From Candidatus Oxydemutatoraceae bacterium (GTDB lineage Bacteria; Pseudomonadota; Gammaproteobacteria; Poriferisulfidales; Oxydemutatoraceae): a stretch of DNA of 64,000 bases. Location of the stretch: contig OZ245335.1 in the NCBI GenBank assembly GCA_965226235.1, positions 1,066,375 to 1,130,374 of the forward strand. Reading direction: 5' to 3'. The translations under genes were made by a program, and so were the position numbers. Under the pieces are notes generated by a model that had not been told where the DNA came from, made no database searches, and was given only the letters and a program-made list of their open reading frames with translations. Shown here one piece after another: positions 9,120-29,220 of this stretch. The number at the start of each line of letters is the position of its first letter. The stretch's first letter is position 1.

Positions 9120-9564
9120 CGCCGCTGCCGATAAGAAAACTGCAGGCAAGCCGGCGCCGACAATGAAAATGGTGTTCGGCCATGCGTCTGCCATCACGAA
9201 AGCTGTTTCCAGTCTAGAAATCATCGGCGAATCGAGCTTTGCCCAGTGCTCTGCATGCATGGTCTGAAAAGGTTTCTCGCTTACAATCAAGGTCAGGCTC
9301 ACTAACCAAAGCTTGCATCGTATGACCCTGGAAAGACTGTATTTGTTGCATCAGATACTAACCCGGAAATTTCACCGATTTGTAATTTCGGCATAGATTC
9401 CCGTTGAGCAGCACTGATTTTTTGTCCTGGTACGTTCTCCATGCATCCGATCCCGTATCGGATGACTGTTATCGCCTGTCCGAGGGTATCCGGAGGGGTT
9501 GGCGCAGGCCAGCTACCTGGCGGATCCCGTGGGTTGTAAGGGCCATAAGCCCAAGATTTCTATT

Positions 9565-9573
9565 TGCTATAAT
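9565..9573 (+). promoter_or_regulatory. Extended -10 element TGcTATAAT on the plus strand. It could be the cas9-operon promoter, placing the anti-repeat in the cas9 5' leader.
   Basis: Perfect TGnTATAAT with no good -35. Comparable motifs are expected by chance at roughly this frequency in 64 kb. Confidence 0.3.
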
Positions 9574-9601
9574 AAAAAATGATCCCCCACTGGGAGGGAT
9601 C
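9571..9601 (-). terminator. Intrinsic terminator on the minus strand: stem-loop GATCCCTCCCAGTGGGGGATC followed by ATTTTTTATT
   Basis: An 8-bp GC-rich stem (one G-U pair), a 5-nt loop and a U-run, ~110 nt downstream of the predicted minus-strand start. Confidence 0.6.
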
Positions 9602-9680
9602 TGGTCGCATTGAAAGCGGCGCCTGCGAAGCCAATGGCTTCTTGGTATGAAAAGCCTGATAGGCCTTGGTCAGTTACACT
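9571..9680. ncRNA. tracrRNA: tracrRNA locus. The anti-repeat at 9658-9680 matches 23 nt of the CRISPR repeat with 1 mismatch, but the strand is unresolved. Minus strand: ~110-nt RNA with its own promoter and terminator. Plus strand: anti-repeat with canonical Cas9 geometry, but the tail overlaps the cas9 start.
   Basis: Plus strand 9658-9680 reads GATAGGCCTTGGTCAGTTACACT, the reverse complement of the first 23 nt of the repeat AGTGTAACTGACCAAGACCTATC apart from one mismatch. Promoter and terminator signals are listed as separate features. Confidence 0.55.
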
Positions 9681-9687
9681 GGCTGAG

Positions 9688-9716
9688 AATATAGCACGGG
9701 AGCGAGAGTGAGTCAA
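9688..9716 (-). promoter_or_regulatory. Sigma70-like promoter on the minus strand. The -35 TTGACT (9711-9716) and -10 TATATT (9688-9693) are separated by 17 bp, with the predicted start at 9680, the first base of the repeat-like segment. It overlaps the cas9 start codon in antisense.
   Basis: Hexamers and spacing read directly from the sequence. Confidence 0.5.
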
Positions 9717-12700: not shown

Positions 12701-12842
12701 CATAACCCTGAGGCTGCATACGGCGGCGACGCTGGAAAACAAGGATGAAAAAGGGATCGAGTTGAGAATCAACCCAGAGAATTTTGAGAAACATAAGCCG
12801 AAGTTGTTGCAGGTTAACGCGATTGGAAAATTATTGTCGTGA
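9708..12842 (+). CDS. cas9: Cas9, type II-C size class (1044 aa), GTG start
   Basis: N-terminal RuvC-I ILGLDLGTNSVGWA, HNH motif EIDHIVPYSQSLDDSYMNKVVCLTKENRFKGQRTP and RuvC-III HHAVDAVVIA. A GGGAG Shine-Dalgarno lies 7 nt upstream of the GTG. It overlaps cas1 by 4 bp. Confidence 0.95.
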   Translation: MSQKILGLDLGTNSVGWALLEGRGGKPREIIDVGVRIFNEAIDSKNKTPKNAQRRQARLARRVLQRRARRKRKMLSLLVKQGFLPHKALSSTNLEGILHELGDPYELRARALNDRLSEHELGRVFFHLVQRRGFLSNKKTLLGDMADDPDVKEILQQDDKPDNQSDSDEEKKKNKEESEFKRHISELRNKIEASGARTLGEYLHKHRKNNLKRNRSHAGEYEYLRTDRRMYQEEFDKIVKAQRRLGASLPQETVEAELHKIIFFQRPLKFRSDRVGKCTLELGKNRARMGRLEAQRFRYLQDINHLKYRDIDDSERSVGDNDRTKLKELFETVEKPTFSKIKKVLGLSKGVKLNLEEYGTKKLKGNTTACRIRKVYSGWDELSAEQQKKLVEDLITIKKKSVLKKRLMNHWRFSKESTVNLCLIELEPGHSNHSLKAIDRILPFLEKGEIYSDARESAGYGYEQVQQDSRETLGEPPAIPNPIVSRGLSELRRVVNAIIAEYGKPDIIRIEMARDLEMNTKKYKQYQKQINANYKANEEAAEEYGKVARANPHLRLRDEASRDDKIRYRLWKDQDCRCVYSGRSIGGHELFSPEVEIDHIVPYSQSLDDSYMNKVVCLTKENRFKGQRTPVDAFGGNAEKWQQIRGTIEKWGKPLASKKNRFYLTAEQVEQRGFASRQLNDTRYISKEAQEYVRQLGADVSVTKGATVALLRRQWGLNRILSSDGGKNRADHRHHAVDAVVIASIDRGIHQRLVKSAQEVERQGSELATRRLVLDMPYPELRDEIEDKLNRVIVSHDPQRKVSGALHKGKGLGFKKGIGLITRKHLDSEITSKQVKNIVDPVVRGQVEDHLMQYGGSPKIAFAEDVIVRHKNGRTPIRRVRVVQSKTTFEKLESGKYSKFGVKNKDGEVFKWMDYGNTHHVEILQSKKDTGKIKGEFVTTMEAAKRARRNRTRSLVRTDHGEEWRLLMVLHINNLVSVKVNDCRQIYRVQKLSKTRNSITLRLHTAATLENKDEKGIELRINPENFEKHKPKLLQVNAIGKLLS

Positions 12843-13738
12843 TAAAACGTGTCGTCGATGTAAGCAGCGCCAGCACGTTAAGGCTGGAGAACAAACAACT
12901 GGTCATTGAACAGGGCTTTTCTCAAGCAGCGAGAGTGTCACTGGAAGATTTGGGCATCCTGATACTGCAACACCCTGCGATCACTATTACTCAACCTGTC
13001 TTGAGAGAATGCCAAAGAAATAATGCTGCTGTCGTTTTGTGCGATGAACGCCACCTGCCTACATCGGTTATTCTGCCCTTGATGACGGGGAACTCTCTGC
13101 ATAGCAAAATCATCAGGCAGCAGATGGCAGCCAGCAAATCAAGGGAAAAAAGGGTTTGGCAACAGATTATAAGACACAAGATACGTGCTCAGATCAGGCT
13201 ACTGGCAAGACAAGAGAAGCCTACGAAAGCGCTGGAGTTGCTTTTTCAGAGAGTCAGGTCAGGAGATCCGGACAACTGTGAGGCTCAGGCCGCGCAAAAA
13301 TACTGGCCCCTGTTGTTTGGTTCCGGCTTTCGCCGGAACCAAACGGCCGACGGGATGAACGCATTGTTGAACTACGGTTATGCGATTATGCGAGCGATGT
13401 TAGCCAGAGCTGTTGTGGGCGCAGGACTGCATCCCGCATTGGGTGTGCACCATAGGAACCAGTATAACGGCCTGAATTTGGCTGACGACTTGATGGAACC
13501 TCTTAGGCCTTGGGTTGACGAAGTAGTCCTGAAACTAGCTGGAGAGAACAACCTGACTGTCAATCGTGAATCCAAGAAATGTCTGTTGGCGCTACTTTTT
13601 TCCCTAGTGATATGGAAGAAGAAATCCTTGCCCTTGATGTCCTGTAGTCATAGCCTGGTGGCTGATTTCAAGAGAATGCTGGGTGGAGACCAATCCTTTT
13701 TTGATTATCCGGTGTTATCAGAGGGTTCGGTGCAATAA
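12839..13738 (+). CDS. cas1: Cas1 integrase
   Basis: NALLNYGYAIMRA...GVHHRNQYNGLNLADDLMEPLRP motifs with conserved acidic and His residues. The length (299 aa) is typical of type II Cas1. Confidence 0.93.
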   Translation: MIKRVVDVSSASTLRLENKQLVIEQGFSQAARVSLEDLGILILQHPAITITQPVLRECQRNNAAVVLCDERHLPTSVILPLMTGNSLHSKIIRQQMAASKSREKRVWQQIIRHKIRAQIRLLARQEKPTKALELLFQRVRSGDPDNCEAQAAQKYWPLLFGSGFRRNQTADGMNALLNYGYAIMRAMLARAVVGAGLHPALGVHHRNQYNGLNLADDLMEPLRPWVDEVVLKLAGENNLTVNRESKKCLLALLFSLVIWKKKSLPLMSCSHSLVADFKRMLGGDQSFFDYPVLSEGSVQ

Positions 13739-13886
13739 ATTTACCGAATAGCCAAATGGCAGATTATTAAAGAGAACGAGGAGGGCACTTCGGCAAGGCT
13801 ATTCGCCGATCGCGTACGACACGGAGCCATCCGTCGTATAACGGATTTCCTGCTTCTACAGAGCGCCGACGTTTCAAGCAGAAAAA

Positions 13887-14216
13887 ATGGCTTTTGGTGG
13901 CCTAAATACTTTGTGGCTAATCGTGCTATTTGATTTACCTACGGATACCAAGACAGCACGTAAAAGGTACGTAAATTTCCGAAAGCACTTGCTTTCGGAC
14001 GGTTTTACGATGATGCAGTATTCGGTTTACATGCGACATAGCGCCAGTGAGGAAAACGCTCAGGTGCACCGTAACCGTGTCAAACAGTTTTTACCGCCTG
14101 AGGGAGAGGTCCGGATGATCAAGATCACCGACAAGCAGTTTTCAAAAATAGAGGTTTTCTACGGCAAAAAACGTGTTCCTATTGAACCAGCCCCCAGCCA
14201 ATTGCAATTACTCTGA
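13887..14216 (+). CDS. cas2: Cas2
   Basis: LIVLFDLPTDTKTARKRYVNFRKHLLSDGFTMMQYSVY closely resembles type II Cas2 (FDMPTDT...RKFLL...QFSVY). Confidence 0.9.
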   Translation: MAFGGLNTLWLIVLFDLPTDTKTARKRYVNFRKHLLSDGFTMMQYSVYMRHSASEENAQVHRNRVKQFLPPEGEVRMIKITDKQFSKIEVFYGKKRVPIEPAPSQLQLL

Positions 14217-14264
14217 ACGAACTTCTACCAAAAGTTCTTTATTTTCAATGCGTTGTGTTGGGAA

Positions 14265-15435
14265 TAGTGTAACTGACCAAGACCTATCCGCAAATCACAA
14301 TCCCATTCAGCCGACATATAGAATACGTCCGCGAGTGTAACTGACCAAGACCTATCCGCAAATCACAATACGTATTACGGTGTAGGGTGAGTCGGATAAG
14401 AGTGTAACTGACCAAGACCTATCCGCAAATCACAATTGCCGAAGCTGCCTGTTGATAAATTCAGAGAGTGTAACTGACCAAGACCTATCCGCAAATCACA
14501 ATGCCCGTGGGGGCCGGTCCAGTCTGCTGACAAGTGTAACTGACCAAGACCTATCCGCAAATCACAATCGTTCACCCTGCGTGGCTCATCGTACCTGTAG
14601 TGTAACTGACCAAGACCTATCCGCAAATCACAATCAGTGGGTAGACTGGCATGAAAGGCAAAACTATAGTGTAACTGACCAAGACCTATCCGCAAATCAC
14701 AATCAGCGTAACCTTGAGCCCGCGTTCGCCTCCGAGTGTAACTGACCAAGACCTATCCGCAAATCACAATAGGCAAGAGATAGACCGCCTGATCGGAGAA
14801 AGTGTAACTGACCAAGACCTATCCGCAAATCACAATCCGGATTCAAGCGAGTCTCTATCGACAAACAGTGTAACTGACCAAGACCTATCCGCAAATCACA
14901 ATCCGTAGTCCCGCCAACCAATATAGACTTGCAGTGTAACTGACCAAGACCTATCCGCAAATCACAATAGTTCGGTGATTGGTGGGCTTAGGGTGAAAAG
15001 TGTAACTGACCAAGACCTATCCGCAAATCACAATTCAGATGGCAACTGCGAGATATGCGCAAAAGTGTAACTGACCAAGACCTATCCGCAAATCACAATC
15101 GGTGCTGACAACGCATGCCTGCCACACGTAGTGTAACTGACCAAGACCTATCCGCAAATCACAATCTTAATGTGGTAGCAAATCATCCCTTCCCTTAGTG
15201 TAACTGACCAAGACCTATCCGCAAATCACAATCATGGCGTGCTTTACGATCTCACGCGGATAAGTGTAACTGACCAAGACCTATCCGCAAATCACAATGA
15301 AGCTGTAACTGCTGCACTTCAGATGGCGGGATAAGTGTAACTGACCAAGACCTATCCGCAAATCACAATTCGATCTCTGTTGCCTCAACAAGCACGGTCA
15401 AGTGTAACTGACCAAGACCTATCCGCAAATCACAA
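14265..15435. CRISPR. CRISPR array of 18 identical 36-bp repeats (AGTGTAACTGACCAAGACCTATCCGCAAATCACAAT) and 17 spacers of 29-35 bp, mostly 30. Only the last base of the last repeat differs (T to C).
   Basis: Repeats counted directly, with starts at 14265, 14333, 14400, 14466 ... 15400. The transcribed strand is not determinable from sequence alone. Confidence 0.97.
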
Positions 15436-15499
15436 CCGTCTTTAGCCACGGTGTATCGACCATGAAGCCAGGCGGGACTTTATCCAAGAGTGGTTTCAA

Positions 15500-15645
15500 T
15501 CTTTGTGTTCTTTGATGGTACATAGCCATTAAACTATTATATATTCAAAATATGTTCAAAGGATTTTTTAGTTCTTGTGCATATACATGGTCTATTGCCA
15601 TTCAAATCAATGCAATTCAAAATCAGGATACGGATGATTCAATCA
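15500..15645. promoter_or_regulatory. AT-rich leader-like block abutting the cas-distal end of the array, with four TTCAAA-containing direct motifs
   Basis: A strongly AT-rich ~150 bp containing tattcaaaat, tgttcaaagg, cattcaaatc and aattcaaaat. No ORFs lie here. Confidence 0.35.
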
Positions 15646-16135
15646 CTCGAGAGCGAGCGCAATATACAAGGCAGGAGGATCGCGCGTTTGGCCCGAACGT
15701 GGCGGCTTTAACGGGCCAAGTCATCTGAGCGGCGGGCAGGCTGTCGACGACGAAGACAACATGAGCTGGTGCGGCCGACGTGGACTACCGGGTCAGGACC
15801 CGTACATCAATGCATCGATCCGGTCGGCGATCTTTTGTGCGGATTCTCGAAATTTCTCGACAGTCCAGCCGGCCACCTAGCCTTCGGTAACACCGTTAAG
15901 CCGAGCATGGTTGGCGAGGCGTTTGGTGAGCGAGGGATGCAGCATTAGTTCTTGCTCGGCGGCGGTGATAAAGCAGTTCCACAACATTCCCTGCAACTCT
16001 TTTTGCATGAGCATTTCAGTTCCATTTTGTTCCCACTCATTCTCACTTTTGCCAGTAAGGTGTGAGATCAAATCGAAAACTACTAAAGATCCGCCAATTT
16101 TCAGTAAAGGGATACAGTTCATCCAAATACCTAAC

Positions 16136-17617
16136 CTACCGCAAACCAGAAAGCACCTCGCGAAAACTGTTGAGACCAGCTTCAAGGTTCTCAATGATCT
16201 CTTCGGCAAGATCGTTAGGCTCGGGCAGGTTGTCCAGATCGGTCAGGTTCTTGTCCTTGAGCCAGAAGATGTCCAGGCTGGTCTTGCCGCGCGCGCTGAT
16301 CTCCTCGTAGCTGTAGCTGCGCCAACGGCCTTCCGGTGCGTCCTTTTCGTCATAGGTCGCCTTGCGCTGATGTCGGTTCTGCGGGTTGTAGCAGTTGATG
16401 AAGTCCGACAGATCCTCGAAGCGCATCGGCTTCTTCTTCAGCGTATGGTGAATGTTGGTGCGGTAGTCGTAGTACCAGACCTGCTTTGTCCAGGGATTCG
16501 GGTTGGCTTCGTGGTTGTCGAAGAAGATCACATTGGCCTTGACTCCTTGCGCGTAAAACACGCCGGTCGGCAAGCGTAGGATGGTGTGCAGGTCCGTGTT
16601 GTCCAGCAGCTTCTTGCGGATCGTTTCACCGGCACCGCCTTCAAACAGCACGTTGTCGGGAACGACGACGGCAGCGCGGCCAGTGGTCTTGAGCAGCGTG
16701 CGGATGTGCTGCACGAAATTTAGCTGCTTGTTCGAGGTCGTCGCCCAGAAATCCTGCCGGTTATAGGTCAGGTCGTCGGTTTCCTGCTCGCCTTCCTCGT
16801 TCGTGAAGCTCATGGAGCTTTTCTTGCCGAAGGGCGGGTTCGCCAGCACATAGTCAAAGCGCCTTCCGGCATCGGCCACGAGCGAATCGTTTGGCAATAT
16901 GGGCACGCCGCCGTCGATCTCGCCGATGTTGTGCAGGAACATGTTCATCAGACACAGACGGCGTGTATTGGCGACGATCTCGTTGCCGTGAAACGCCTTG
17001 TGCTTCAGGAACGCCTTCTGCTTCTTGTCTAGGTTGAAGTTGTCCGGGTTGGTCATGAAGTCGTAGGCGGCGAGAAAGAAACCGCCCGTACCGCAGGCCG
17101 GGTCGGCGATGAGCGTACCCGGTTCGGGCCGTACGCATTCGACCATGGCGCGGATGAGAGCGCGGGGCGTGAAATACTGGCCGGCACCTGATTTGGTGTC
17201 TTCGGCATTCCGCTCCAGCAGGCCTTCGTAGATGTCGCCCTTGATATCCGCGCCCATGGTGACCCACTCTGTGTCGTCCACCATGTCGATGAGGCGGAAC
17301 AGCTTTGCCGGGTCTTGAATCTTGTTCTGGGCCTTGGTGAAGATATGGCCCAGCATGTCCTTCTTCGTACCGAGTTCACGCAGCAGAGCGATATAGTGGT
17401 TTTCGAGCTCCGCACCCCGCCTTGCTTTCAGGGTCTGCCAGTTGAATTTGGCTGGGATACCGACATCGCGGTTGTACGGGGGGTTGGCGTACTCGCCGGC
17501 CATCTTGAGGAAGATCAGATAGGTGAGTTGCTCCAGGTAGTCGCCATAGCTCACCCCGTCATCGCGCAGGGTGGTGCAGAAGCTCCAGACTTTGGAGACG
17601 ATGGGAGCGGTGTTCAT
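16136..17617 (-). CDS. hsdM: Type I restriction-modification N6-adenine methyltransferase subunit HsdM
   Basis: HsdM N-terminal domain and the LANPPFG catalytic motif. The reading frame is intact. Confidence 0.9.
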   Translation of the reverse strand: MNTAPIVSKVWSFCTTLRDDGVSYGDYLEQLTYLIFLKMAGEYANPPYNRDVGIPAKFNWQTLKARRGAELENHYIALLRELGTKKDMLGHIFTKAQNKIQDPAKLFRLIDMVDDTEWVTMGADIKGDIYEGLLERNAEDTKSGAGQYFTPRALIRAMVECVRPEPGTLIADPACGTGGFFLAAYDFMTNPDNFNLDKKQKAFLKHKAFHGNEIVANTRRLCLMNMFLHNIGEIDGGVPILPNDSLVADAGRRFDYVLANPPFGKKSSMSFTNEEGEQETDDLTYNRQDFWATTSNKQLNFVQHIRTLLKTTGRAAVVVPDNVLFEGGAGETIRKKLLDNTDLHTILRLPTGVFYAQGVKANVIFFDNHEANPNPWTKQVWYYDYRTNIHHTLKKKPMRFEDLSDFINCYNPQNRHQRKATYDEKDAPEGRWRSYSYEEISARGKTSLDIFWLKDKNLTDLDNLPEPNDLAEEIIENLEAGLNSFREVLSGLR

Positions 17618-19233
17618 GCGGAGGTGTTCTTCCCTTTGATCTGTTCAGCGAACGCCTCGCCTTGAGCGGTTCGGCGATAGCGCTGGTTTCGGCTATGCGG
17701 CTTGTCGGGGAGAGTCATTTCAACCAGTTCGGCCACAAGGGCGGGCCGCAAATAGACCGTGGCGAAGTGGCCGCGATGTTTCAGTTGCAGTGCCATTTGC
17801 AGTTCTACCCGGCTCATCTCTCCGGTGAGCGCAACTACCAGTTGCTCGACATGTGCGGTAACTTGGTCGGTCACTGGATCGGTCATTTGTGCGGTATACC
17901 GAATATCATCCTGCTTTATCAAATACTTATCTTGTGCGGCAACTTGGTCGGTCTCATGCTCGGTCGCCACGTTGGCCGCCCGCTCGTGCACCGGCAGCCG
18001 AACCAGAAACCAGGTTCGGTCCTCGTCGCTCTCGAAGACCGGCTCCGGGGAGCCGTTCTGCTGCATGGCTCGCAGAATCTTGGGGACCCCGGTTGACCTG
18101 CCCTCGGCCAACTCGAGTTCCTTGAGAAACTCTCCAATTCGACGATTGCGGTAGCGGCGGCTGACGGCTTGCCCGTTCTTGAAATCTTCCATGCGGATCG
18201 ATCGGTCGGCGCCCGGAAAGCTCAAGACCACCAGTTCTTCAGAGGTGATGTGCACTTCGACAGGTTCACGTTCTTCATATGAGCGGTGGTAGATCGCATT
18301 CACCAGTGCCTCTTCGATGGCACCAATGGGAAAGTTCCAGAATCGCTCCGCTTCGGGCTTGTGTGGATGCTTGACGACCGTTTCCTTCAGGTGGTTCCGT
18401 CCGATGTAGCTGATCGCCTCGCTGAGGATGATCGACAGGGGGCCGCGAAACTCCTTCTCCTCGAAATGGTCTCCGCCAGGGCCATCCGGAAACCAAACAA
18501 CATCAATCTGAGTTGCCGGAAAGAAGTCGTGCGGGCGGTCGTTAAAAAACAGCAAGCCGACGTTCTTGGGGAACATCGCTTCGGGAGGACCGCCGACGAT
18601 GTTCATGCGTTGACCCAGGCTCTCAATCGGGAGATCGACCGCCTCAGAGGCGAGGTCGCTGCCGATGTCGCGCAGGAATTCCTGGATAAGCCGATGCGAA
18701 AGGTCATCAAGCGAAGCCGTCTGGCGATACCTGTCATCAAAGGGCACGGTGGCGGCCAGGCTGAGCAACTCGCGTTCATCACGGCCTCTCGCACGGACCG
18801 TGCTTGTGTGTTTGCGAACGAAGTATGCCCACTCCGAGCGCCCCTTGGTGAGATTTACTCTGGCTTTGTAAGGACGGGTTTCACCGCCAGGTGCCCAGAG
18901 CACGAGTATGGTTCTGCCATCAATATCGTAGGTCCCCGTAAGCGGGTGGTAATAGGGCTGTATGGCCGAATTGCCCAGACTCAGCAGTTCCTTCTGGATC
19001 GCATCGATGGAATCCGGAGGAATGCCCTTGGGCGGCAGTACTGGGCGGCCGTCGCGCTCCTCGACCCCCAATACGACGTAACCGCCGCCCAGATTGTGGA
19101 AGTCGTTGGCGAAGGCGCAGATGGTGTACAACACACTCTGCGGATTCCAACCAGCCTTGTACTCGATGCGCTCGCCTTCAATGGTGCGCTGGCGAAGCAG
19201 GCGGTTGATGTTGATGGGAAGTTTGCCGGTCAT
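17614..19233 (-). CDS. AlbA_2 / divergent-AAA (Schlafen-like) DNA-binding protein with a C-terminal HTH, commonly annotated as RecG-like and often embedded in type I R-M loci
   Basis: N-terminal ...YKAGWNPQSV...GGGYVVLGVEE and a C-terminal RRYRNRRIGEFLKELELAEGRSTGVPKI region. It lies between hsdS and hsdM. Confidence 0.65.
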   Translation of the reverse strand: MTGKLPININRLLRQRTIEGERIEYKAGWNPQSVLYTICAFANDFHNLGGGYVVLGVEERDGRPVLPPKGIPPDSIDAIQKELLSLGNSAIQPYYHPLTGTYDIDGRTILVLWAPGGETRPYKARVNLTKGRSEWAYFVRKHTSTVRARGRDERELLSLAATVPFDDRYRQTASLDDLSHRLIQEFLRDIGSDLASEAVDLPIESLGQRMNIVGGPPEAMFPKNVGLLFFNDRPHDFFPATQIDVVWFPDGPGGDHFEEKEFRGPLSIILSEAISYIGRNHLKETVVKHPHKPEAERFWNFPIGAIEEALVNAIYHRSYEEREPVEVHITSEELVVLSFPGADRSIRMEDFKNGQAVSRRYRNRRIGEFLKELELAEGRSTGVPKILRAMQQNGSPEPVFESDEDRTWFLVRLPVHERAANVATEHETDQVAAQDKYLIKQDDIRYTAQMTDPVTDQVTAHVEQLVVALTGEMSRVELQMALQLKHRGHFATVYLRPALVAELVEMTLPDKPHSRNQRYRRTAQGEAFAEQIKGKNTSA

Positions 19234-20343
19234 GCTGCCATCTTTTTCTTCTTTGTTTTCTTGGCGTGGTTGTTCTTCACCGCCTGCTCTCTTACGGCCC
19301 TGATTCGGTCCAGAAGAGCCGAGGCCGGTTCGTCGTGCGGGTCCTGCGCGACGAGTTGACCGGAGAAGGCTTTCTTGAGAATCGACTGGCGCAGTGTCTC
19401 CGCCTGCTTTTGGCCGAGTCTATCTCTCGCTCCTGCCACTCAATCGCAACGCGAATCGCTCCTCTAACAGGCGGACAATTTCTTGCTGTTCGGCCAGAGA
19501 GCAAAGAGGAAGCGCGATCTGGGCAAACTTGAATGCACTCAAGTGGTTGATCCCCACGCCGCCGGCAACTTGAGCAAATTTCCCGCTTACATAGAAGAAG
19601 CGATACAACCAAAGCAGATAAACCGCATAGGCACGACAATGTGGTTGATGCCTATAACGGTGTTTTGAAAGCAGCAATTCTGGATCTGATCGTTCCAAAT
19701 CGCTGGCTTTCCGACTTGCGCTGCGCTTCCAGATGCTTCGGACAGCACCAAATCACCCTTTCTCAAACGGTATGCGCTTAGTTCGTGAGGCAGGAAATCC
19801 ATGTCGAGAATGTCGTCCAAATCCAAACCTTGTTCCGTAATGTTCGCAGCTCGGATGTACTTCGTGGGGTAATCCTTCGACCTGTTCTTTGGAGAACGTT
19901 GTCGACCGAGTTGGACGATTCCTACAGACTCGGCGGTCAACCATAGCCAACCACTCGGCAGTGATTCTAGGTGGGTAATCTCCTCTTCTGCCATCGTTAA
20001 AACTGACTTGGGCATTCTTGGCCGTACCGGCTTCTTGCCTGACTTACTGCCTTCCTCCCATGCCTTGACGGCGGTCTCCCACTCTTTGAGTTGCCGATCG
20101 TAGCGCGCCGCCCGCTCCTGTTTGATGCGGGCGAGCAACTGCTCAGGCATCTCAAGCTTGTCTTTGTTCCCTTCGCGCCACTGGGCCGTGAGCTTGCCTT
20201 CGAAGGCGTGCTTGAGCACGGCTTGGCGGTAGACATTGAGCTGTCGCCCGCGCCGTCTTCAGGCTCTCGACGCCTTTGTCCAGTTCGGAAAATAATTCCT
20301 CGATCTTGGCGACGATGCGGCGTTGTTCAGGTAGCGGAGGCAC
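19230..20343 (-). pseudogene. hsdS: Type I R-M specificity subunit hsdS, disrupted by several frameshifts
   Basis: Four overlapping ORF fragments (19230-19439, 19420-19698, 19587-20219 and 20152-20343) alternate between reading frames. Together they carry HsdS hallmarks: two central conserved LPPLxEQxxIVxxIEELF-like regions, a target-recognition-domain segment and the C-terminal LRQSILKKAFSGQLV. Confidence 0.75.
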
Positions 20344-20814
20344 CGGAATTCAAAGTGGAGAGCCAGATAGGGGGTCGGGACCCGCTGACCAACCGCGCCA
20401 GTTTGATATTGTGCCCGGCGTCCCTACGAAACGACTCCGACGATGCTTCTACAAAGAAAGACGTATTGGGCGCTTATCCCTCGCAATGAGGGTCTCAACC
20501 ACGGCCAATTCATCTTGATCCGAAAGCCAACTCGTTCTTCAGAGGCGGAACGACCGCTCCCATCTTGCCGTTTTCCATGCACGGTGTGATCTTCGCAAAG
20601 AGTACATATCTCGGAAACCGTTAGCCCTTCTTCACCTCCTCAAAGCTTCGTGCTGACTTTCCTTGGACGCCTGAAGGGGAGACTCGCAAGAACGGTTGAA
20701 TGACACCATTGTTGATGGCGACTGACTCGCCCGTGGATTCACGATTCTGCGCTTCAAGTCAGGGCGAGCTCCCAGCTATTAGGAATCATGGATTCGCTTG
20801 GGGTTCGCCGGTCA

Positions 20815-23592
20815 CTATGCCGCCAATGCCTCATTCAATTCATCAATCACATCATCCATTCGATCGCCGAAAAGCTTGTACATCTGCCCCATGCCGCCTT
20901 TGCCATCGAACGGGGCCATCTCCAGATCGTCTCGCTCCAGATGAAAGGAGTCGACGATGTGGTCACGGATCATGCGCAGCCAGTCCATCTGCTCCTCGTT
21001 GAACTTCTCGCCGCTGCCGCTGTGGCGCGTCATGATCCAATTCTGAAAATTGCGGCGCACGGTTTCCGAATACGGAGACAGCGTCGCGTCGATACCGCAG
21101 ACCCGGCGAATCAACGCCACCAGCGCGGTCAGTTCACTGGCCGGTTGGCTGCCCTTGTATTCATCCAGCAAGGAGTATGCCTGCCAGACCCGCAAAGGGG
21201 CCAGTCGGGGTTGGTCGCTCTTGAGCTTGTCGAATACCTCGCGGATCATGGCGTAGGTCAGCTCACGGCGGCGGTGCGGTTGGGCGTAGAAGATGGTCAG
21301 GGCTTCGATCTTCGTCTCGATTGGCTTCCAAATACTGGCGGAAATCCTGTGCCATGGCTTCGGCATTCTCGTGTGCGTCGCCTTCCCATTCGGCGCGCAG
21401 CACCGAATCCAGGCTGTCATGGTCGATGGTCTGTTCCTTGTCGCGGCGAATCGAGTCGATCAACTCGATCAGTTCGCCGTTGAACACGCCGGCCGCATCT
21501 CGCCTAGCTGCAATTCCTGAGCCTTGTCGCTCGTGGCCGGTGACGGCTCGGCACCGTCGGGCACGGGCTCGGTATCACGCGCCTTCTCCTGAATGCGGTC
21601 AGGGTCAATGGCGGCCAGCAGATTGCCGACGATATTGGTGAGTTCGAGGCCGCCGGCTTGCTCCTTGATTCGCTCCCGCTCAGTGGAATCGAGTTGTTGA
21701 TTGAGCCGGGCAAGGCGTCCGGCGAGAGAACTCACCGTGTCTTCATCGCGCGCACCCATCATCACGCCCATGGCGAGGTCCCGGAGTGGCACGGCGGGCT
21801 TGGTGATGAGCGGTTGGCTGGCGGTCTTGAGCGATTTCGTGACACCGACGGCATCCACGATCACGTAGTGGGTCTTGCCGCTGACGGCGGAGGGCGAGAC
21901 CTTCTTGAGATCGTCGTGGTCGAGGGTGCGGGAGCCACGACCCTTCATCTGCTCGAAATAGTTGCGGCTCCTCACGTTGCGCATGAAAAGCAGGCATTCG
22001 AGCGGTCTGACGTCGGTGCCGGTGGCGATCATATCCACGGTCACAGCGATGCGCGGGTAGTAGTCGTTGCGGAACTGGGCGAGGACAGATTTCGGGTCTT
22101 CTTCGGTTTTGTAGGTGATCTTCTTGCAGAACGCGTTGCCTTCGGCGAATTCCTCGCGCACGGTCTGAATGATGTCGTCGGCGTGGCTGTCGGTCTTGGC
22201 GAAAACGAGCGTCTTCGGAACTTCGGCGCGGCCCGGAAATATCTCAGACAGTGTGTCTCGAAAGGTGCAGACGACGGTGCGGATCTGGTCGGGGTTGACG
22301 ACGGAATGGTCCAGTTCACTGGCGGTATAGACGACGTCCTCGTCCTGAATTTCCCAGCGCTTGCGGCGCGTCAGACGCTCGCGCTTCTCGACCTGCTGGT
22401 GCGCCCTGAGTTGACCGCCGCGCTGCGTCCTTACCGTGTCGATGGCGTAGATTTCGTTGCCAACGTTGACGCCGTCGGCGACGGCTTGCTCATGGTCGTA
22501 TTCGCTGACGACGTTCTTCTTGAAGAACCCATAGGTGCGGTTATCCGGCGTGGCGGTCAGGCCGATGAGATAGGCGTCGAAATATTCCAGGACTTGACGC
22601 CAGAGGTTGTAAATCGAGCGGTGACATTCGTCGATGATGATGAAATCGAAAAACTCGGGTGGAATCTTACCGTTATAGGCAACCGGCATCGGTTCTTTGG
22701 GCTTAACCATTTCCGCCGGGTTGATCTGCTCGGCGGCTTCGTCCAGCTCCTGATCCTTCAGCAGCGAGTACATCCGCTGGATGGTGCTGATGCAGACCTG
22801 ACTGTCCTTGGCGACGGAGGACGATTTGAGGCGCTGGACGTTGTACAGCTCGGTGAATTTCCGGTTGTCGTCACTGGGCACGTAGGCCATGAATTCCTGC
22901 TCGGCCTGTTCGCCCAGATTCCTGGTGTCTACGAGAAAGAGGACGCGCTTGGCGTCAACGTGCTTGAGCAACCGGTAGATCGAGGTAATAGCAGTATAGG
23001 TCTTGCCAGAGCCAGTGGCCATCTGAATGAGGGCACGCGGGCGGTCCTCTTTGAAGGATGCTTCGAGCTTCTCAATGGCGTTGACTTGGCACGCTCTCAA
23101 TCCGGTGGGGTCTAAACTCGGTAGCGCCTGGAGCCGCTCACGAAGCGAGACCGACTGGGTGAGCCAGGCCTGTATCGTCTCTGGCCGAGGGAAGTTAAAC
23201 ACCTCTCGGGAGCGGGGTTTCGGGTCGCGTCCGTCGGTGAAACGGGTGAGTGCCCCGGTGCTTTCGTAAACGAATGACAGCGGCGCGCTATTGCTCACCC
23301 ACTTGAGTTTTGCGGACGCGTAACGCCCGGACTGCTCCTCGACCGTCGTGAGCTTATGGCCCCAATGTTCCGGCTTGGCCTCGACCACGCCGACAGGCTT
23401 CTGGTCGATGAAGAGAACGTAGTCGGCAGGGCCGACATCCGTTTGATACTCACGGACGGCGATACCGCTACCTGAGGAAAAATTGATCTCCTCCCTGTCC
23501 TGAACGAACCAGTTTGCCTGCGACAGCATCTTGTCGATAATGTCGCGTGCCTTCTGTTCGGATGTCTGGTTGGCACTTGACATTCGGTTCAC
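20815..23592 (-). pseudogene. hsdR: Type I restriction endonuclease subunit hsdR, disrupted near 21320-21470. The 707-aa N-terminal ORF ends at a TGA, and the C-terminal domain continues in other ORFs.
   Basis: The N-terminal and helicase part (QMATGSGKTYTA, DECHRS) is in ORF 21469-23592. The HsdR C-terminal domain is split across ORFs 21263-21487 and 20815-21420, in different or interrupted frames. Confidence 0.75.
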
Positions 23593-24037
23593 TCGTTTTT
23601 ACTTTTGGCCCATAGTTTGCGAAAGAGCTCCCCACAGCAACACCTTACACTGGCCCATATGGGGGGGAGGCGCACATGAATTCACGAAGGACCTGGACCG
23701 CAGGCCTGTTCTGCGCTTGGTAGACGTGTTGAAGGCGATTGCAGAGATCGTACTGCACTTTAATGCATAAATTGGTGTTTTTTTCATTTCGGCGAGTATA
23801 GCCAATGGCTGGATGTTTGTGGAGTGAATAATGTAGACGGCACCTCCTTCGGGCTTCCATGACGCAGTGGATGTGACGTTGCCATACCATAACAAGGCAA
23901 AGCAGAGAACCGGTTACAGCTACGCCAACATTTCGTTGTGAATTTCAAGGATTCGTTCTGCTCTTTCACTGATACGGCCTGAGTATACCCGACACTTTTC
24001 ATGGTAGATAATGTAACGTAACTATGAGAGGTAAACG

Positions 24038-24334
24038 ATGGGCAAAGGCATTCGATACACGGATGAATTTAAGCAGGAAGCGGTTAATCAGGTAGTGGTT
24101 TATGGCTATCGCGTTCTTGATGTTTGTGAGCGATTGGGCATATCCAATAAAAGTCTTTACGACTGGATCAAGAAGTTCAGTAAACCACCTCAACAATGTC
24201 AGGCCGAAGCCGACCTCCGCGCTGAGAATGCGCGCCTCAAACGCGAGCTAAAGCGCGCTCACCAAGAGAGGGACATATTAAAGGAGGCCGCAGTGTTCTT
24301 TGCCGGCGAGTCAAAGAACGCTACCCGTTCATAA
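24038..24334 (+). CDS. IS3-family transposase OrfA (HTH)
   Basis: MGKGIRYTDEFKQEAVNQVV...LKRELKRAHQERDILKEAAVFFA, a typical IS3/IS150 OrfA. Confidence 0.85.
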   Translation: MGKGIRYTDEFKQEAVNQVVVYGYRVLDVCERLGISNKSLYDWIKKFSKPPQQCQAEADLRAENARLKRELKRAHQERDILKEAAVFFAGESKNATRS

Positions 24335-24363
24335 AAGCTCGCAGTACCGATCATTCGGTCAGA

Positions 24364-25192
24364 ATGCTTTGTCGGGCAGTTGATGTTCATCCGAGCGGCT
24401 ATTACGAATGGCTCGTTACCCCATTGAATGCTCGTGCAATACAGGATCAGCAGTTCACCGCGAAGATCAGGCAGTACTGGCTCGAGAGCGGTGGACACTC
24501 TGGTTATCGCAATATTCACGAAGATATCCTTGAGGCAAAAATGAGTTGCGGTCGTGACCGGGTGCTACGGTTGATGCGCGCTGCTGGTCTGCGTGCACAA
24601 CGCGGCTACAAGAACGCCCAGAGGCTATGACAGCGGTAAAACGCATCCTGCTATGCCGAACCTGTTGGATCGACAGTTTGAGGTATCTGCGCCAAATCAG
24701 TGGTGGGTTAGTGATATCACTTACATTCACACACAGGAAGGCTTTTTGTTCCTGGCCGTGGTAATGGATTTATTTGCTCGTAACATTGTGGGCTGGGCTA
24801 TGGTGCCAAGAATCACCGATAACCTGGTACTCGATGCGGTAACGATGGCGTACTGGCGGCGCAAGCCTATCAACAAAGTCATGCTTCATTCAGATCAAGG
24901 TTCACAATATACAAGCGGTCGGTGTAAGAAGTTACTCAAGGCGCTGAATATACAAGCCAGTATGAGTCGTCGTGCCAACTGTCATGACAATGCAGTGGCA
25001 GAGAGCTTCTTTGCCAACCTGAAGAAAGAGAAGATCAGAAGAATAAAGTACAAAAGCCGTGCAGGCGCACGGCAATCTATGTTTAACTATATCGAGATGT
25101 TCTACAATCCGAAGCGCCGACATACGCATAATGATCGCGTTGCACCAACGGTCTATGAACAACGATATTTAATGAATCAGGAAAGTGTCTAA
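24364..25192 (+). pseudogene. IS3-family transposase OrfB (DDE integrase core), split into two frames (24364-24630 and 24593-25192) by an extra frameshift near a short tandem near-duplication (cgcggctacaag / agaggctatgac)
   Basis: HSDQGSQYTS and a C-terminal YNPKRRH..L motif are present. OrfB needs both a -1 shift from OrfA and an additional +1 shift, so the element is probably defective unless this is a sequencing error. Confidence 0.7.
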
Positions 25193-25667
25193 CAAACTCA
25201 GGCCGTATCACACAAGGGAAAGCGCACCAGGTATTACCCTTACCGCCTCCTGATGACTCCCTATGACCGACTTCGATCGCTCCCGGATGCGCCGCAGTAT
25301 CTCAAGCCCGGTGTCACCTTTGAACAACTGGATGACATCGTGATGCAACACAGTGATAATGAAGCTGCCCTGATGCTCAACGAGGCCCGGGATAAACTGT
25401 TTCAGTGCTTTAACAAAACCCGAAACCACGCCGCCTGAGTGCAAACCGAGACGTAAAGAAAACTGCTCTCTTCAGGCTCATTTCCAGATTGGAAAACACT
25501 TGTATCGCGGTTGTCGGTTGAACAAAGGCTCAACCTGCTTATCCCTGAAAGTCATTCGACACCTTCAGCCAGCACAACACTTCCCGAGCCTTACGGCAAC
25601 AATTTTCCATTTGGGGCGTTTTGCGTCAAAAGGTTCTGTCCAAACCGACCGGCCCTAGTGCCACTGA

Positions 25668-26804
25668 TTAGTCGATAATCAGGTCGTGCGTTGGCAACAG
25701 ATCGCGGATTACGTAGGTACGATGCAACGCTGAAGCTTGATAAAAATGCCAAATAGGCGTTTCCATTGCAGTGTGGTAATCTTCTTGGCCATCAAGATTC
25801 TCCCACTGCCCGTTCCAGTTTTCGCCTTCATAGATGGGAATCTGCTCGCCGGGTTCACCAAATATTGCCCCTTCTTTCGCTGCGGCTTGCCAAGCGTCAA
25901 TACGCTCTTGCTTGGGTCCTTGTGTCAGCAGAACTCTCATTACCCTTTCAGAAATGTCACTAAACGCCCTGCCATCGCCGGAAGAATATTTTTCAGGCTG
26001 TAAATTCAAAAAATGTGTGAACATGTTGTAGAGAGCATGGCAACCTTCATGAAATGTTACCGAATTATTCCTTATAGATGTTATTCCATTGGCCACATAA
26101 TCATCCCGTTCATAGTCAAAGCTCCAGACGAGATACGGCCTATCTGGATAGGTGACGACAGAACCGTGTCCTAGCGCGCCTGATGCCGTTTCCGCAAGCC
26201 ATGAAACAAAATTCCTTAATAAACCGCCGTGGTAGTCATTCGATTTTGCGATGAACTTTGATGCCTTATCGGTAATATATTCGCGCATATCAGGGCTGAG
26301 ATTTGCGATCGTCACATCAAGGCCTTTCACCTCTTCGTGGAACCGGAAGCTGTTATTGACGACCTTGTTCCCTCGAGAACTCACGCCAGAAAATCCGTAA
26401 TGGGAAAATGTGTCAGCATATACATGAGCAGCGATCCCCATGAGGGCTGGTGCGAAAGCTCTGTCTGCGAGGCCCAGATGATGATCCCGCATCTCCTGCA
26501 CAACTTCACTGTCCTTGCGGCATTTCAAGCGTTCAGTATAGCCCTTACCTTGATTGCCCGGAAGGAAGTGAAATGGTACCCACACGCGACGTTGATCGCC
26601 GTCCTTGATATTGGCTATATCGCTCGTATGGTGTGCGGTCGCTTCCGCGTCGATTCTCGAACCGTCACGGAAGGCCACGTGAGATTTTGCAGTGTTGTCA
26701 TCAACGAATTGGGCACACGTGGCGATGATCTGAGCGGTATACGGATTGATTCCGGCAGCCCGTGCCATTGAATAGGTGCCATAATAATGCATATCTAGTT
26801 GCAT
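25668..26804 (-). CDS. Hypothetical protein (378 aa), His/Asp-rich; possibly a zinc-dependent phospholipase C / P1-nuclease-like hydrolase fold
   Basis: The N-terminal MHYYGTY is reminiscent of the MHYFGD zinc-ligand region of PLC-type enzymes. This is weak, unverified similarity, and there is no signal peptide. Confidence 0.35.
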   Translation of the reverse strand: MQLDMHYYGTYSMARAAGINPYTAQIIATCAQFVDDNTAKSHVAFRDGSRIDAEATAHHTSDIANIKDGDQRRVWVPFHFLPGNQGKGYTERLKCRKDSEVVQEMRDHHLGLADRAFAPALMGIAAHVYADTFSHYGFSGVSSRGNKVVNNSFRFHEEVKGLDVTIANLSPDMREYITDKASKFIAKSNDYHGGLLRNFVSWLAETASGALGHGSVVTYPDRPYLVWSFDYERDDYVANGITSIRNNSVTFHEGCHALYNMFTHFLNLQPEKYSSGDGRAFSDISERVMRVLLTQGPKQERIDAWQAAAKEGAIFGEPGEQIPIYEGENWNGQWENLDGQEDYHTAMETPIWHFYQASALHRTYVIRDLLPTHDLIID

Positions 26805-27024
26805 GGTAGTTTTCCTGTGTGTCGTATCATAAACTCTTCGATTCTAGGGACGACGAACTGCAAAGGCAAGGAGAAAAACGCGGGCCGCCTTTAGCAGTTT
26901 ATCGATTTCATTCCCACGTGGAGCGTGCAACGTTATCGGTCTATGGAATCGCTTGTACCGAGAGTATACCGCATGACACGGCACGGGGATTGGGAACAGG
27001 GGATAGCTATCTTGTTGATATGAT

Positions 27025-27101
27025 TGGTGGGCCTGGCAGGATTCGAACCTGCGACCAAAGGATTATGAGTCCCCTGCTCTGACCGGCTGAGCTACAGGCC
27101 C
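27025..27101 (-). tRNA. ileX: tRNA with CAT anticodon, most similar to tRNA-Ile2 (lysidine, ileX-like); CCA is encoded
   Basis: Cloverleaf GGGCCUG...CAGGCCC-A-CCA with anticodon loop CUCAUAA. It is highly similar to E. coli ileX, including the UGGUC variable loop, and sits immediately downstream of rpoD as ileX does in E. coli. Confidence 0.85.
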
Positions 27102-28922: not shown

Positions 28923-29220
28923 TTTTGCCTCTTGATGGTTCCAAATCAGCCCAATGGCGGTAGCTGTACCGGTAGACCAGCAAAGGCCTGCCTTCACCAA
29001 AGGAGACTTAACTTCTTATGCTAGCACATATCAGATGAGGAAGAAGCGAAGGGAAAATTGAGTGGGGAGCCTGACTTATGGGCTCAAGCAGAGGACAAGC
29101 CTGGCCACGGAGAATCCTCTCCTTTTGCAAATGAGTCGAGCACCCGCCAGGTAATCCGGCTTCAACCTGAAAATATCTCCGGCCTGGCCTGGCCATGGTT
29201 CCGGGCCATGGTTCCTGGCC

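What the first reader, a model, noticed from the sequence alone, without database searches (positions are those of the whole stretch)
15436..27101. tRNA(CAU)-adjacent defence island: CRISPR-Cas next to a decaying type I R-M system with an orphan hsdM and an AlbA_2 gene
Immediately 3' of the ileX-like tRNA lie a 378-aa unknown protein, an IS3 element, and a type I R-M locus transcribed on the minus strand in the order hsdR-hsdS-AlbA_2-hsdM. hsdR has two frame disruptions near 21320-21470. hsdS is broken into four frame-alternating pieces, although both conserved central motifs are still recognisable. hsdM and the AlbA_2 / divergent-AAA gene remain intact. The CRISPR-Cas locus follows.

The pattern suggests an integrated island whose restriction function has been lost while a methyltransferase, possibly now an orphan or epigenetic one, persists. 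The intact AlbA_2/Schlafen-like ATPase between hsdS and hsdM is a recurrent but poorly understood R-M passenger.
Basis: partly seen in the sequence, partly recalled or inferred. Interest (0 to 1): 0.55.

Follow-up and report, generated by a model that had tools for sequence, protein, structure and literature searches.

The report
tRNA-anchored defence island, doubtful R-M decay
Next to a tRNA-Ile(CAU) gene lies an ordinary variable defence island (CRISPR-Cas9, plus a type I restriction-modification operon carrying a Schlafen-type gene); its "decay" is private to this one record and is at least as likely an assembly artefact as real gene loss.

Summary
On the minus strand the order is tRNA(CAU), DUF6765 gene, defective IS3, then hsdR-hsdS-AlbA_2-hsdM. 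A complete type II-C CRISPR-Cas follows.

hsdR has two private single-frame disruptions (21499, 21313). hsdS is worse than described, with 13 frame changes and one in-frame stop against an intact allele.

The island reading is supported and widened. A relative with 81-85% DNA identity has only 5.1 kb between the carbamoyltransferase gene and the tRNA. It carries two 40-45-nt direct repeats of the tRNA 3' part. The variable segment here is 9168-27024. The window has no att repeat and no tyrosine integrase.

The decay reading is weak. A conspecific contig carries the same four-gene operon fully intact. The window's breaks are indel-dominated, confined to strain-variable segments, and flanked by 3.1 kb of intact genes. 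I favour a consensus artefact or a very recent private inactivation over long decay.

An orphan or epigenetic HsdM is unsupported, because HsdM needs HsdS.

The AlbA_2 gene belongs to the Schlafen-GHKL-HTH class described in 2026. Its Ex4ExK motif is intact.

The parts
9168..27024 (.). Whole variable (island) segment between core genes
   Evidence: Homology to relative L086 ends at 9167, 48 nt after the carbamoyltransferase gene. It resumes exactly at the tRNA 3' end, 27025. L086 has 5.1 kb of other cargo here.
27025..27101 (-). tRNA-Ile2-like tRNA(CAU), the island anchor, downstream of rpoD
   Evidence: ARAGORN and Rfam. Best E. coli match is annotated tRNA-Ile. Its 3' 40-45 nt recur as direct repeats in L086 and L084.
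25668..26804 (-). DUF6765 gene (378 aa) inside a portable 1.45-kb module (25501-26954)
   Evidence: Pfam E=6e-89. The module is 94-95% identical in L083 and L084, in other defence contexts.
25211..25438 (+). C-terminal relic of a DDE (rve) transposase, split by the IS3 insertion (the rest of the relic lies just left of 23969)
   Evidence: The joined frame reads through the IS3 site. It is 40% identical to the C-terminus of a 432-aa rve 'integrase'.
23970..25210 (+). IS3-family element, 1241 bp, with a broken transposase
   Evidence: Inverted repeats and CAC duplication. NCBIfam transpos_IS3. The orfB frame break is shared by L081, L085 and L087.
20815..23583 (-). hsdR, 921 aa in relatives; here broken at 21499 and 21313
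   Evidence: ResIII, HSDR_N and EcoEI_R_C domains. Both indels are private to the window. A divergent patch lies at 21686-21490.
19230..20815 (-). hsdS with 13 frame changes and 1 in-frame stop
   Evidence: An intact allele of the same TRD types is P0178/L089.
17614..19233 (-). Schlafen(AlbA_2)-GHKL ATPase-wHTH gene (539 aa), intact
   Evidence: Pfam. EGERIEYK at residues 19-26 and the N-box EALVNAIYH at 308. More than 4454 homologues.
16136..17617 (-). hsdM (493 aa), intact
   Evidence: N6_Mtase and HsdM_N. PADLOC MTase_I, E=1e-194, full length.
15877..16122 (-). Conserved 81-aa ORF downstream of hsdM, function unknown
   Evidence: Called in L087 and L088. No family match.
14266..15436 (.). 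CRISPR array: 18 repeats of 36 nt, 17 spacers
9708..14216 (+). cas9 (1044 aa), cas1, cas2 (type II-C layout)
9555..9680 (-). Candidate tracrRNA: anti-repeat 9658-9680, then hairpins and a T-run
   Evidence: 22 of 23 nt match the repeat, in inverted orientation.

Best explanation
**What the locus is.** Coordinates 9168-27024 are a strain-variable defence locus anchored at the 3' end of a tRNA-Ile2(CAU) gene downstream of rpoD. In this lineage that tRNA is a recurrent integration site.

**Cargo.**
- A complete type II-C CRISPR-Cas: tracrRNA, cas9, cas1, cas2 and 18 repeats.
- A four-gene type I R-M operon, hsdR-hsdS-slfn-hsdM, translationally coupled by ATGA overlaps.
- A dead IS3 sitting inside the relic of a DDE transposase.
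- A portable DUF6765 module.

**How it should work (inferred).**
- In its intact form, as seen in a conspecific, HsdM2-HsdS methylates a bipartite site and HsdR restricts unmodified DNA.
- The embedded Schlafen-GHKL-HTH protein is most likely an ATP-switched tRNase effector acting as a second line of defence. By analogy with PrrC in EcoprrI, it could fire when the R-M complex is inhibited or when DNA is being cleaved.

**State in this record.** hsdS has 13 frameshifts and a stop, and hsdR has 2 frameshifts. As written, there is neither restriction nor HsdM-dependent methylation.

**Verdict on the breakage.** It is not long-term decay. About 55-60% likely it is a consensus artefact at a multi-allelic locus of a metagenome-derived assembly. 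Otherwise it is a very recent, strain-private inactivation. HsdM is not an orphan epigenetic methylase.
For: **Hotspot (shown).**
- Synteny with L086 breaks at 9167 and 27025.
- L086 has two direct repeats of the tRNA 3' part, and L084 has one, all ending at the anticodon loop.
- The DUF6765 module occurs in other contexts.

**Intact operon (shown).**
- L087 carries hsdR 921 aa, hsdS 509 aa, slfn 539 aa and hsdM 493 aa.
- The five closest short-read metagenome loci are all intact.

**Private breaks (shown).**
- The hsdR indels are absent from L081, L085 and L087.
- The truncated products exist only in the source contig.

**Atypical for natural decay.**
- The TRD1 C-part has 19 gap events against 27 mismatches. 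CR1, TRD2 and CR2 together have 4 against 82.
- dN/dS is about 0.24 in the original frame.
- There are no disruptions in the adjacent 3.1 kb of slfn and hsdM. There are no coding indels against L085 across about 13 kb of core sequence.
- The first hsdR shift lies at the edge of a 200-bp mosaic patch and reads as an out-of-register join of two alleles.
- At least three hsdS alleles share identical borders, and a related contig ends inside hsdR.

**Schlafen gene.**
- The Ex4ExK motif is present in 113 of 120 and 80 of 80 homologues.
- Among downstream neighbours, 15 of 57 are type I HsdR and 3 of 57 are HsdM.
- Literature: PMC13056530, PMC13462974, bioRxiv 10.64898/2026.05.29.728809. PrrC is covered in PMC12707154.
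Against: - No reads could be inspected, so the artefact is inferred and not shown.
- Contigs at only 3-4x coverage from the related sample have clean ORFs. This suggests accurate reads and makes random noise unlikely.
- A conspecific contig, L081, also has a multiply broken hsdS. Natural damage does occur in this operon family, for example a roughly 290-nt deletion in L089 slfn.
- TRD2-CR2 shows a natural-looking ratio of substitutions to indels.
- The window has no att repeat or integrase, so how the cargo arrived is unknown.
- The Schlafen guardian role is untested. The HisKinase-type pSlfns that were tested gave no protection in E. coli (PMC13056530).
Confidence: 0.6

Rival explanations
1. 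Genuine pseudogenisation. In this strain the R-M system has really been inactivated by many mutations in hsdS and two in hsdR. slfn and hsdM persist because they are still selected or have not yet been hit.
For: - The sequence as deposited shows the breaks.
- One in-frame stop arises inside the coding frame.
- L081 hsdS is also broken.
- L089 slfn has a real internal deletion, and L082 hsdM has a +1 shift.
- The base-level quality of the window is otherwise high.
Against: - Fifteen indels with few accompanying substitutions contradict the usual ratio of about one indel to ten substitutions (general knowledge).
- The first 1.9 kb of hsdR are 100% identical to L081, so the lineage is very young.
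- 3.1 kb of partner genes are untouched.
- HsdM is useless without HsdS, so its intactness is unexplained unless the event is very recent.
- The truncated products have no independent confirmation.
Confidence: 0.35
2. Programmed or phase-variable switching of hsdS, by repeat slippage or by recombination with silent hsdS copies, with the frame changes as its footprint.
For: Type I hsdS phase variation is known in other bacteria (PMC7383803, PMC7557576). Several hsdS alleles share the same borders here.
Against: - No simple-sequence repeat lies in hsdS.
- The window has no second hsdS copy and no recombinase.
- The indels are not in homopolymers.
- Thirteen scattered shifts cannot be reversed by one switch.
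Confidence: 0.02
3. Not an island: the whole arrangement is ancestral core genome, and the tRNA adjacency is a coincidence.
For: - The window has no att repeat and no integrase.
- The R-M block has genome-like G+C, 0.54-0.61.
- Four conspecific contigs share the layout.
Against: - L086 lacks all of the cargo and has tRNA-derived direct repeats.
- The DUF6765 module and the R-M operon occur in unrelated contexts.
- CRISPR-Cas and the tRNA-proximal part have lower G+C, 0.47-0.51.
Confidence: 0.04

Closest known systems
Prokaryotic Schlafen proteins of the HisKinase(GHKL)-HTH class, also called the 'Schlatpase' supradomain (PMC13056530; bioRxiv 10.64898/2026.05.29.728809; PMC13462974)
   Same: - The architecture is SLFN_AlbA_2 + PF13749 GHKL ATPase + C-terminal wHTH.
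- The Ex4ExK motif is present.
- The gene sits in a defence island and inside an R-M operon. All three papers report that association.
   Different: - No member embedded in an R-M operon has been tested.
- The trigger and any partnership with HsdM or HsdS are unknown.
- This subfamily is unusually conserved: the top 120 homologues are 68-99% identical.
- It has a fixed position between hsdS and hsdM.
PrrC anticodon nuclease embedded in the type IC EcoprrI locus (PMC12707154)
   Same: - A gene for a predicted ATP-dependent tRNase lies inside a type I R-M operon.
- This suggests a guardian that triggers abortive infection when restriction is blocked.
   Different: - The fold is unrelated: Schlafen plus GHKL here, ABC-type ATPase plus the PrrC nuclease domain there.
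- The position differs: between hsdS and hsdM here, between hsdS and hsdR there.
- Activation by R-M inhibition is pure inference here.
Type I R-M systems with EcoAI/EcoEI-like HsdR (type IB-like)
   Same: - HsdM has HsdM_N and N6_Mtase.
- HsdS has two TRDs and two conserved regions.
- HsdR has HSDR_N, ResIII and EcoEI_R_C.
   Different: - It scores below the curated equivalog cut-offs: EcoAI 205 bits against 550, PRK11448 382 against 729.
- It has a fourth gene.
- In this record hsdS and hsdR are frame-broken.
tRNA-anchored genomic islands or defence hotspots (for example at ileX/ileY-type tRNA genes)
   Same: - The variable cargo starts exactly at the tRNA 3' end.
- Relatives carry direct repeats of the tRNA 3' part that end at the anticodon loop.
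   Different: - The window has no integrase and no distal att.
- The cargo is a mosaic of separately mobile modules and not one element.

Membership tests
Type I restriction-modification system | HsdM methyltransferase with HsdM_N and N6_Mtase domains and the NPPF motif | tested here: met
   Full length, 493 aa, the same as in relatives.
Type I restriction-modification system | One open hsdS encoding two TRDs and two conserved regions | tested here: not met
   The parts are recognisable, but there are 13 frame changes and 1 stop. The gene is intact in L087 and L089.
Type I restriction-modification system | One open hsdR with nuclease, SF2 motor and C-terminal assembly domain | tested here: not met
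   The domains are present, but the frame is broken at 21499 and 21313.
Type IB (EcoAI/EcoEI) family | HsdR reaches the NCBIfam EcoAI equivalog cut-off | tested here: not met
   205.5 bits against a cut-off of 550. The Pfam EcoEI_R_C domain is present.
Prokaryotic Schlafen (pSlfn), GHKL-HTH class | SLFN_AlbA_2 domain with the catalytic Ex4(E/D)xK motif | tested here: met
   PF04326, E=9e-10. EGERIEYK at residues 19-26. Conserved in 113 of 120 and 80 of 80 homologues.
Prokaryotic Schlafen (pSlfn), GHKL-HTH class | Fused GHKL ATPase (PF13749) and C-terminal HTH | tested here: met
   HATPase_c_4 and Fic-like_C. N-box at residue 308. PDB relatives 2kyy, 3lmm and 4rgl.
Prokaryotic Schlafen (pSlfn), GHKL-HTH class | tRNA cleavage and phage protection | not testable with these tools
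   Needs experiments.
PrrC-type R-M guardian | Gene embedded in a type I R-M operon | tested here: met
   ATGA overlaps with hsdS and hsdM. The same order is seen in L081, L082, L087, L091 and L093.
PrrC-type R-M guardian | Homology to PrrC (ABC-type ATPase plus anticodon-nuclease domain) | tested here: not met
   No such domain was found in Pfam, NCBIfam or PADLOC.
PrrC-type R-M guardian | Activation when the R-M enzyme is inhibited | not testable with these tools
   Inference only.
tRNA-anchored genomic island | Cargo absent from a related genome, with the break at the tRNA 3' end | tested here: met
   L086.
tRNA-anchored genomic island | Direct repeat of the tRNA 3' end at the far border | tested here: not met
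   None in the window at up to 3-4 mismatches. Such repeats are present in L086 (two) and L084 (one).
tRNA-anchored genomic island | Site-specific (tyrosine or serine) integrase | tested here: not met
   Only IS3 and the relic of a DDE transposase are present.
IS3 family | TG...CA inverted repeats, 3-bp duplication, and orfA/orfB in a -1 relation | tested here: met
IS3 family | Continuous orfB (DDE domain) | tested here: not met
   An extra frame break at about 24610, shared by three relatives.
Type II-C CRISPR-Cas | Only cas9-cas1-cas2, 36-nt repeats, and a tracrRNA anti-repeat | tested here: met
tRNA-Ile2 (ileX/ileY type) | CAU anticodon and closest similarity to annotated tRNA-Ile rather than tRNA-Met | tested here: met
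   Lysidine modification itself cannot be tested.

The most novel reading that the evidence does not exclude
The 15 indels are real, and slfn and hsdM stay under selection without HsdS and HsdR. That would mean the R-M-embedded Schlafen-GHKL-HTH protein has a restriction-independent role, alone or with HsdM, as an abortive-infection tRNase. It would also mean this population repeatedly switches restriction off while keeping that module.
Probability: 0.1. Interest if true: 0.6.

Novelty: new member of a known kind. Interest (0 to 1): 0.3.

Why it matters
The practical value is as a caution. A frame-riddled specificity gene at a multi-allelic locus of a metagenome-derived genome should not be read as evolutionary decay, or as evidence for an orphan methylase, without read support.

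The biological interest lies in the four-gene operon. A very conserved, catalytically intact Schlafen-GHKL-HTH gene is translationally coupled between hsdS and hsdM. The intact conspecific copy (L087) is a ready construct for testing whether R-M-embedded Schlafens guard restriction, as PrrC does. The 2026 Schlafen papers leave that question open.

Tried and rejected
- **att search.** The tRNA 3' 16-, 20- and 25-mers with up to 4 mismatches found nothing. A 12-mer match at 14976 is at chance level.
- **Genome scan with RpoD.** It was useless for the island test.
- **First exact look-ups.** These failed because of start-codon choice or a withheld source. Cluster look-ups then gave relatives.
- **Short-read (Logan) contig of a related strain.** It ends just after dnaG and does not reach the R-M genes.
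- **DDE relic.** It is not the ISNCY transposase seen in L088, and no family model matches it.
- **Window TRD1 as a mix of alleles.** I considered a column-wise mix of the L081 and L089 alleles. It carries indels found in neither, so this simple form is rejected.
- **CRISPR spacer lengths as a noise indicator.** The window has 8 of 17 spacers that are not 30 nt, against 12 of 95 in relatives (p=0.002). L087 also varies (7 of 26), and all repeats are perfect. This is inconclusive.
- **Internal promoter for slfn-hsdM.** No consensus site lies on the minus strand between 20900 and 19200.
- **Structure prediction and the large profile search.** I did not run them, because the domain assignment was already clear.


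Full report
**Anatomy**

The neighbourhood reads as follows on the minus strand.
- dnaG and rpoD (28922-27123).
- A tRNA with anticodon CAU (27101-27025).
- A 378-aa DUF6765 protein (26804-25668).
- An IS3 element.
- hsdR (23583-20815), hsdS (20815-19230), a 539-aa SLFN_AlbA_2 + HATPase_c_4 + Fic-like_C protein (19233-17614), and hsdM (17617-16136).
- The last three junctions are ATGA overlaps, which indicates translational coupling.
- An 81-aa conserved ORF.
- A CRISPR array of 18 perfect 36-nt repeats (14266-15436).
- On the plus strand, cas9 (1044 aa), cas1 and cas2.

A 23-nt anti-repeat lies at 9658-9680 on the minus strand, followed by hairpins and a T-run. It marks a tracrRNA just upstream of cas9. 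The system is therefore a complete type II-C CRISPR-Cas.

The tRNA's best E. coli match over its full length is annotated tRNA-Ile.

**The IS3**

- It spans 23970-25210, with 29-nt TG...CA inverted repeats and a CAC target duplication.
- orfA is intact. orfB carries an extra frame break near 24610.
- Three conspecific contigs share that break, so this is an old, dead copy.
- It inserted into the last roughly 75 codons of a DDE (rve) transposase gene, of which only this relic remains.
- There is no tyrosine integrase in the region.

**The breaks**

*hsdR.* I compared the window with three contigs of the same species: L081, L085 and L087, which are 98-99% identical in the flanks.
- The window has an effective -1 at 21499 and an extra G at 21313.
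- All three relatives are open there, and two of them give a 921-aa HsdR.
- The first shift sits at the 3' edge of a 200-bp patch (21686-21490) that is only about 85% identical to the conspecifics.
- At that point the sequence reads like an out-of-register join of two allele types.

*hsdS.*
- A frameshift-aware alignment to an intact allele with the same TRD types (P0178, locus L089) needs 13 frame changes and one in-frame stop. 414 of 529 residues are identical.
- Nine of the shifts lie in the roughly 500 nt of TRD1.

**Is it an island?**

Yes, as a hotspot.
- A relative with 81-85% DNA identity (L086, a 2.43-Mb contig) is collinear up to window 9167, and again from 27025, which is exactly the tRNA 3' end.
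- Between those points L086 has 5.1 kb with different genes.
- L086 also has two direct repeats of the tRNA's 3' 40-45 nt. Both end at the anticodon loop and have similar island-side flanks. That is the footprint of tandem integrations.
- A third such fragment lies near a DUF6765 module in L084.
- The 1.45-kb DUF6765 module is 94-95% identical in two other genomes. There it sits next to a KAP NTPase gene and next to a QatABCD system.
- The R-M operon occurs elsewhere in unrelated surroundings.

The variable segment is therefore 9168-27024 and includes CRISPR-Cas. The window has no second copy of the tRNA end and no integrase, so the route of arrival is not shown.

**Is it decay?**

The same locus in conspecific contig L087 has all four genes open: 921, 509, 539 and 493 aa. 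L087 and L081 carry hsdS alleles with other TRDs between identical borders at 20817 and 19394. The locus is therefore multi-allelic in the population.

Arguments against long decay:
- Indel excess. In the TRD1 C-part the window differs from the intact allele by 27 mismatches and 19 gap events. In CR1, TRD2 and CR2 the figures are 82 and 4. Established mutation spectra give roughly one indel per ten substitutions, so TRD1 has a several-fold excess of indels.
- Selection. The original frame still shows purifying selection, with crude dN/dS of 0.24 over CR1-TRD2-CR2, including stretches now out of frame.
- Identity. The first 1.9 kb of hsdR are 100% identical to L081.
- Clean flanks. The adjacent 3.1 kb of slfn and hsdM have no disruption. 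About 13 kb of core sequence shows no coding indel against L085.
- No independent support. The truncated products exist nowhere else in the protein collection.
- Short-read loci. The five closest loci from short-read metagenomes are intact.
- Contig break. A related contig ends inside hsdR, as expected where an assembly graph branches.

Arguments for real damage:
- Conspecific contigs at only 3-4x coverage are clean, so the reads seem accurate.
- L081 hsdS is also multiply broken.
- Natural lesions do occur in this operon family.

I estimate a local consensus artefact at 55-60% and a very recent private inactivation at about 35%. Either way, a long-decaying system with a surviving orphan methylase is not the best reading. 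HsdM depends on HsdS for target recognition (PMC2878639), and no other hsdS is in the window.

**The fourth gene**

- More than 4454 homologues were found. The top 120 are 68-99% identical and share the same three domains.
- The protein keeps the Schlafen catalytic motif Ex4ExK (EGERIEYK, residues 19-26) and a GHKL N-box.
- Its closest relatives have the same hsdR-hsdS-slfn-hsdM order.
- Among 80 more distant metagenome loci, the gene just downstream is a type I HsdR in 15 of 57 cases and an HsdM in 3 of 57. The gene just upstream is an HsdS in 9 of 65 and McrBC in 9 of 65.

Three 2026 papers describe this class.
- pSlfn 'HisKinase-HTH' proteins make up 19% of prokaryotic Schlafens (PMC13056530).
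- The 'Schlatpase' supradomain is found as a stand-alone gene or fused to HsdS in R-M operons. ATP-driven tetramerisation switches on tRNA cleavage in a Schlafen-Argonaute fusion (bioRxiv 10.64898/2026.05.29.728809).
- ATPase-containing Schlafens are described as tightly associated with R-M systems, with their activation still unknown (PMC13462974).

The closest functional analogy is PrrC, a tRNase gene embedded in the EcoprrI type I locus that fires when restriction is inhibited (PMC12707154). That role for this gene is inference only.

**Verdict**

- The island interpretation is supported and extended.
- The decay and orphan-methylase interpretation is doubtful.
- This is a new member of known kinds of system, of modest interest.

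Noticed in passing
window 9555-9680 (-): Candidate tracrRNA. A 23-nt anti-repeat (22 of 23 matching) lies 28 nt upstream of cas9 on the opposite strand, followed by hairpins and a GATCCCTCCCAGTGGGGGATC + T-run terminator. This implies that crRNAs are read from the minus strand.
   Followed up: partly
window 25501-26954; L083 and L084 9851-11306: The DUF6765 gene travels as a discrete 1.45-kb module, 94-95% identical at the DNA level. In other genomes it lies beside a 1066-aa KAP NTPase and an HNH gene (L083), and directly after QatABCD (L084). It may be an unrecognised defence-associated gene.
   Followed up: partly
L082 7075-8412: In another organism's copy of the operon, a 445-aa protein with no Pfam, NCBIfam or PADLOC match sits between hsdR and hsdS.
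   Followed up: partly
window 14266-15436 compared with L081, L087 and L088: Conspecific strains share no spacers with the window. Their repeats end in C where the window's end in T. Spacer lengths are irregular in the window (8 of 17 are not 30 nt), against 3 of 33 and 2 of 36 in L081 and L088.
   Followed up: partly
L088 4866-6182: A 438-aa ISNCY-family transposase is inserted inside the CRISPR array of a conspecific strain. It shows up as a 1471-nt 'spacer'.
   Followed up: no
L086 14026-14070 and 14972-15011: Two tRNA-derived att copies bound tiny islets. One holds only a DUF7669/NucS_C protein and the other a Sel1-repeat protein. Neither has an integrase.
   Followed up: partly
window 29191-29220: A 13-nt tandem repeat (GGCCATGGTTCCG) between dnaG and rpoD varies in length among strains: L085 lacks 11 nt. 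A short-read contig ends at about this point.
   Followed up: no
L089 11587-12896; L082 around 12090: Other copies of the operon carry their own lesions. L089 slfn has an internal deletion of about 290 nt, and L082 hsdM has a +1 shift in a G-run.
   Followed up: partly
window 20815-21420 (the product cluster): Eight other contigs encode stand-alone 135-313-aa EcoEI_R_C fragments that are at least 90% identical to the window's hsdR C-terminal ORF. Splitting of this hsdR tail is therefore recurrent in assemblies, whether real or technical.
   Followed up: no
window 24038-24334: The source genome holds at least one more IS3 orfA variant on the same 2.1-Mb contig. The IS is therefore multi-copy there.
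   Followed up: no
window 15877-16122 (-): An 81-aa ORF just downstream of hsdM is conserved in L087 and L088. It has no family match.
   Followed up: no
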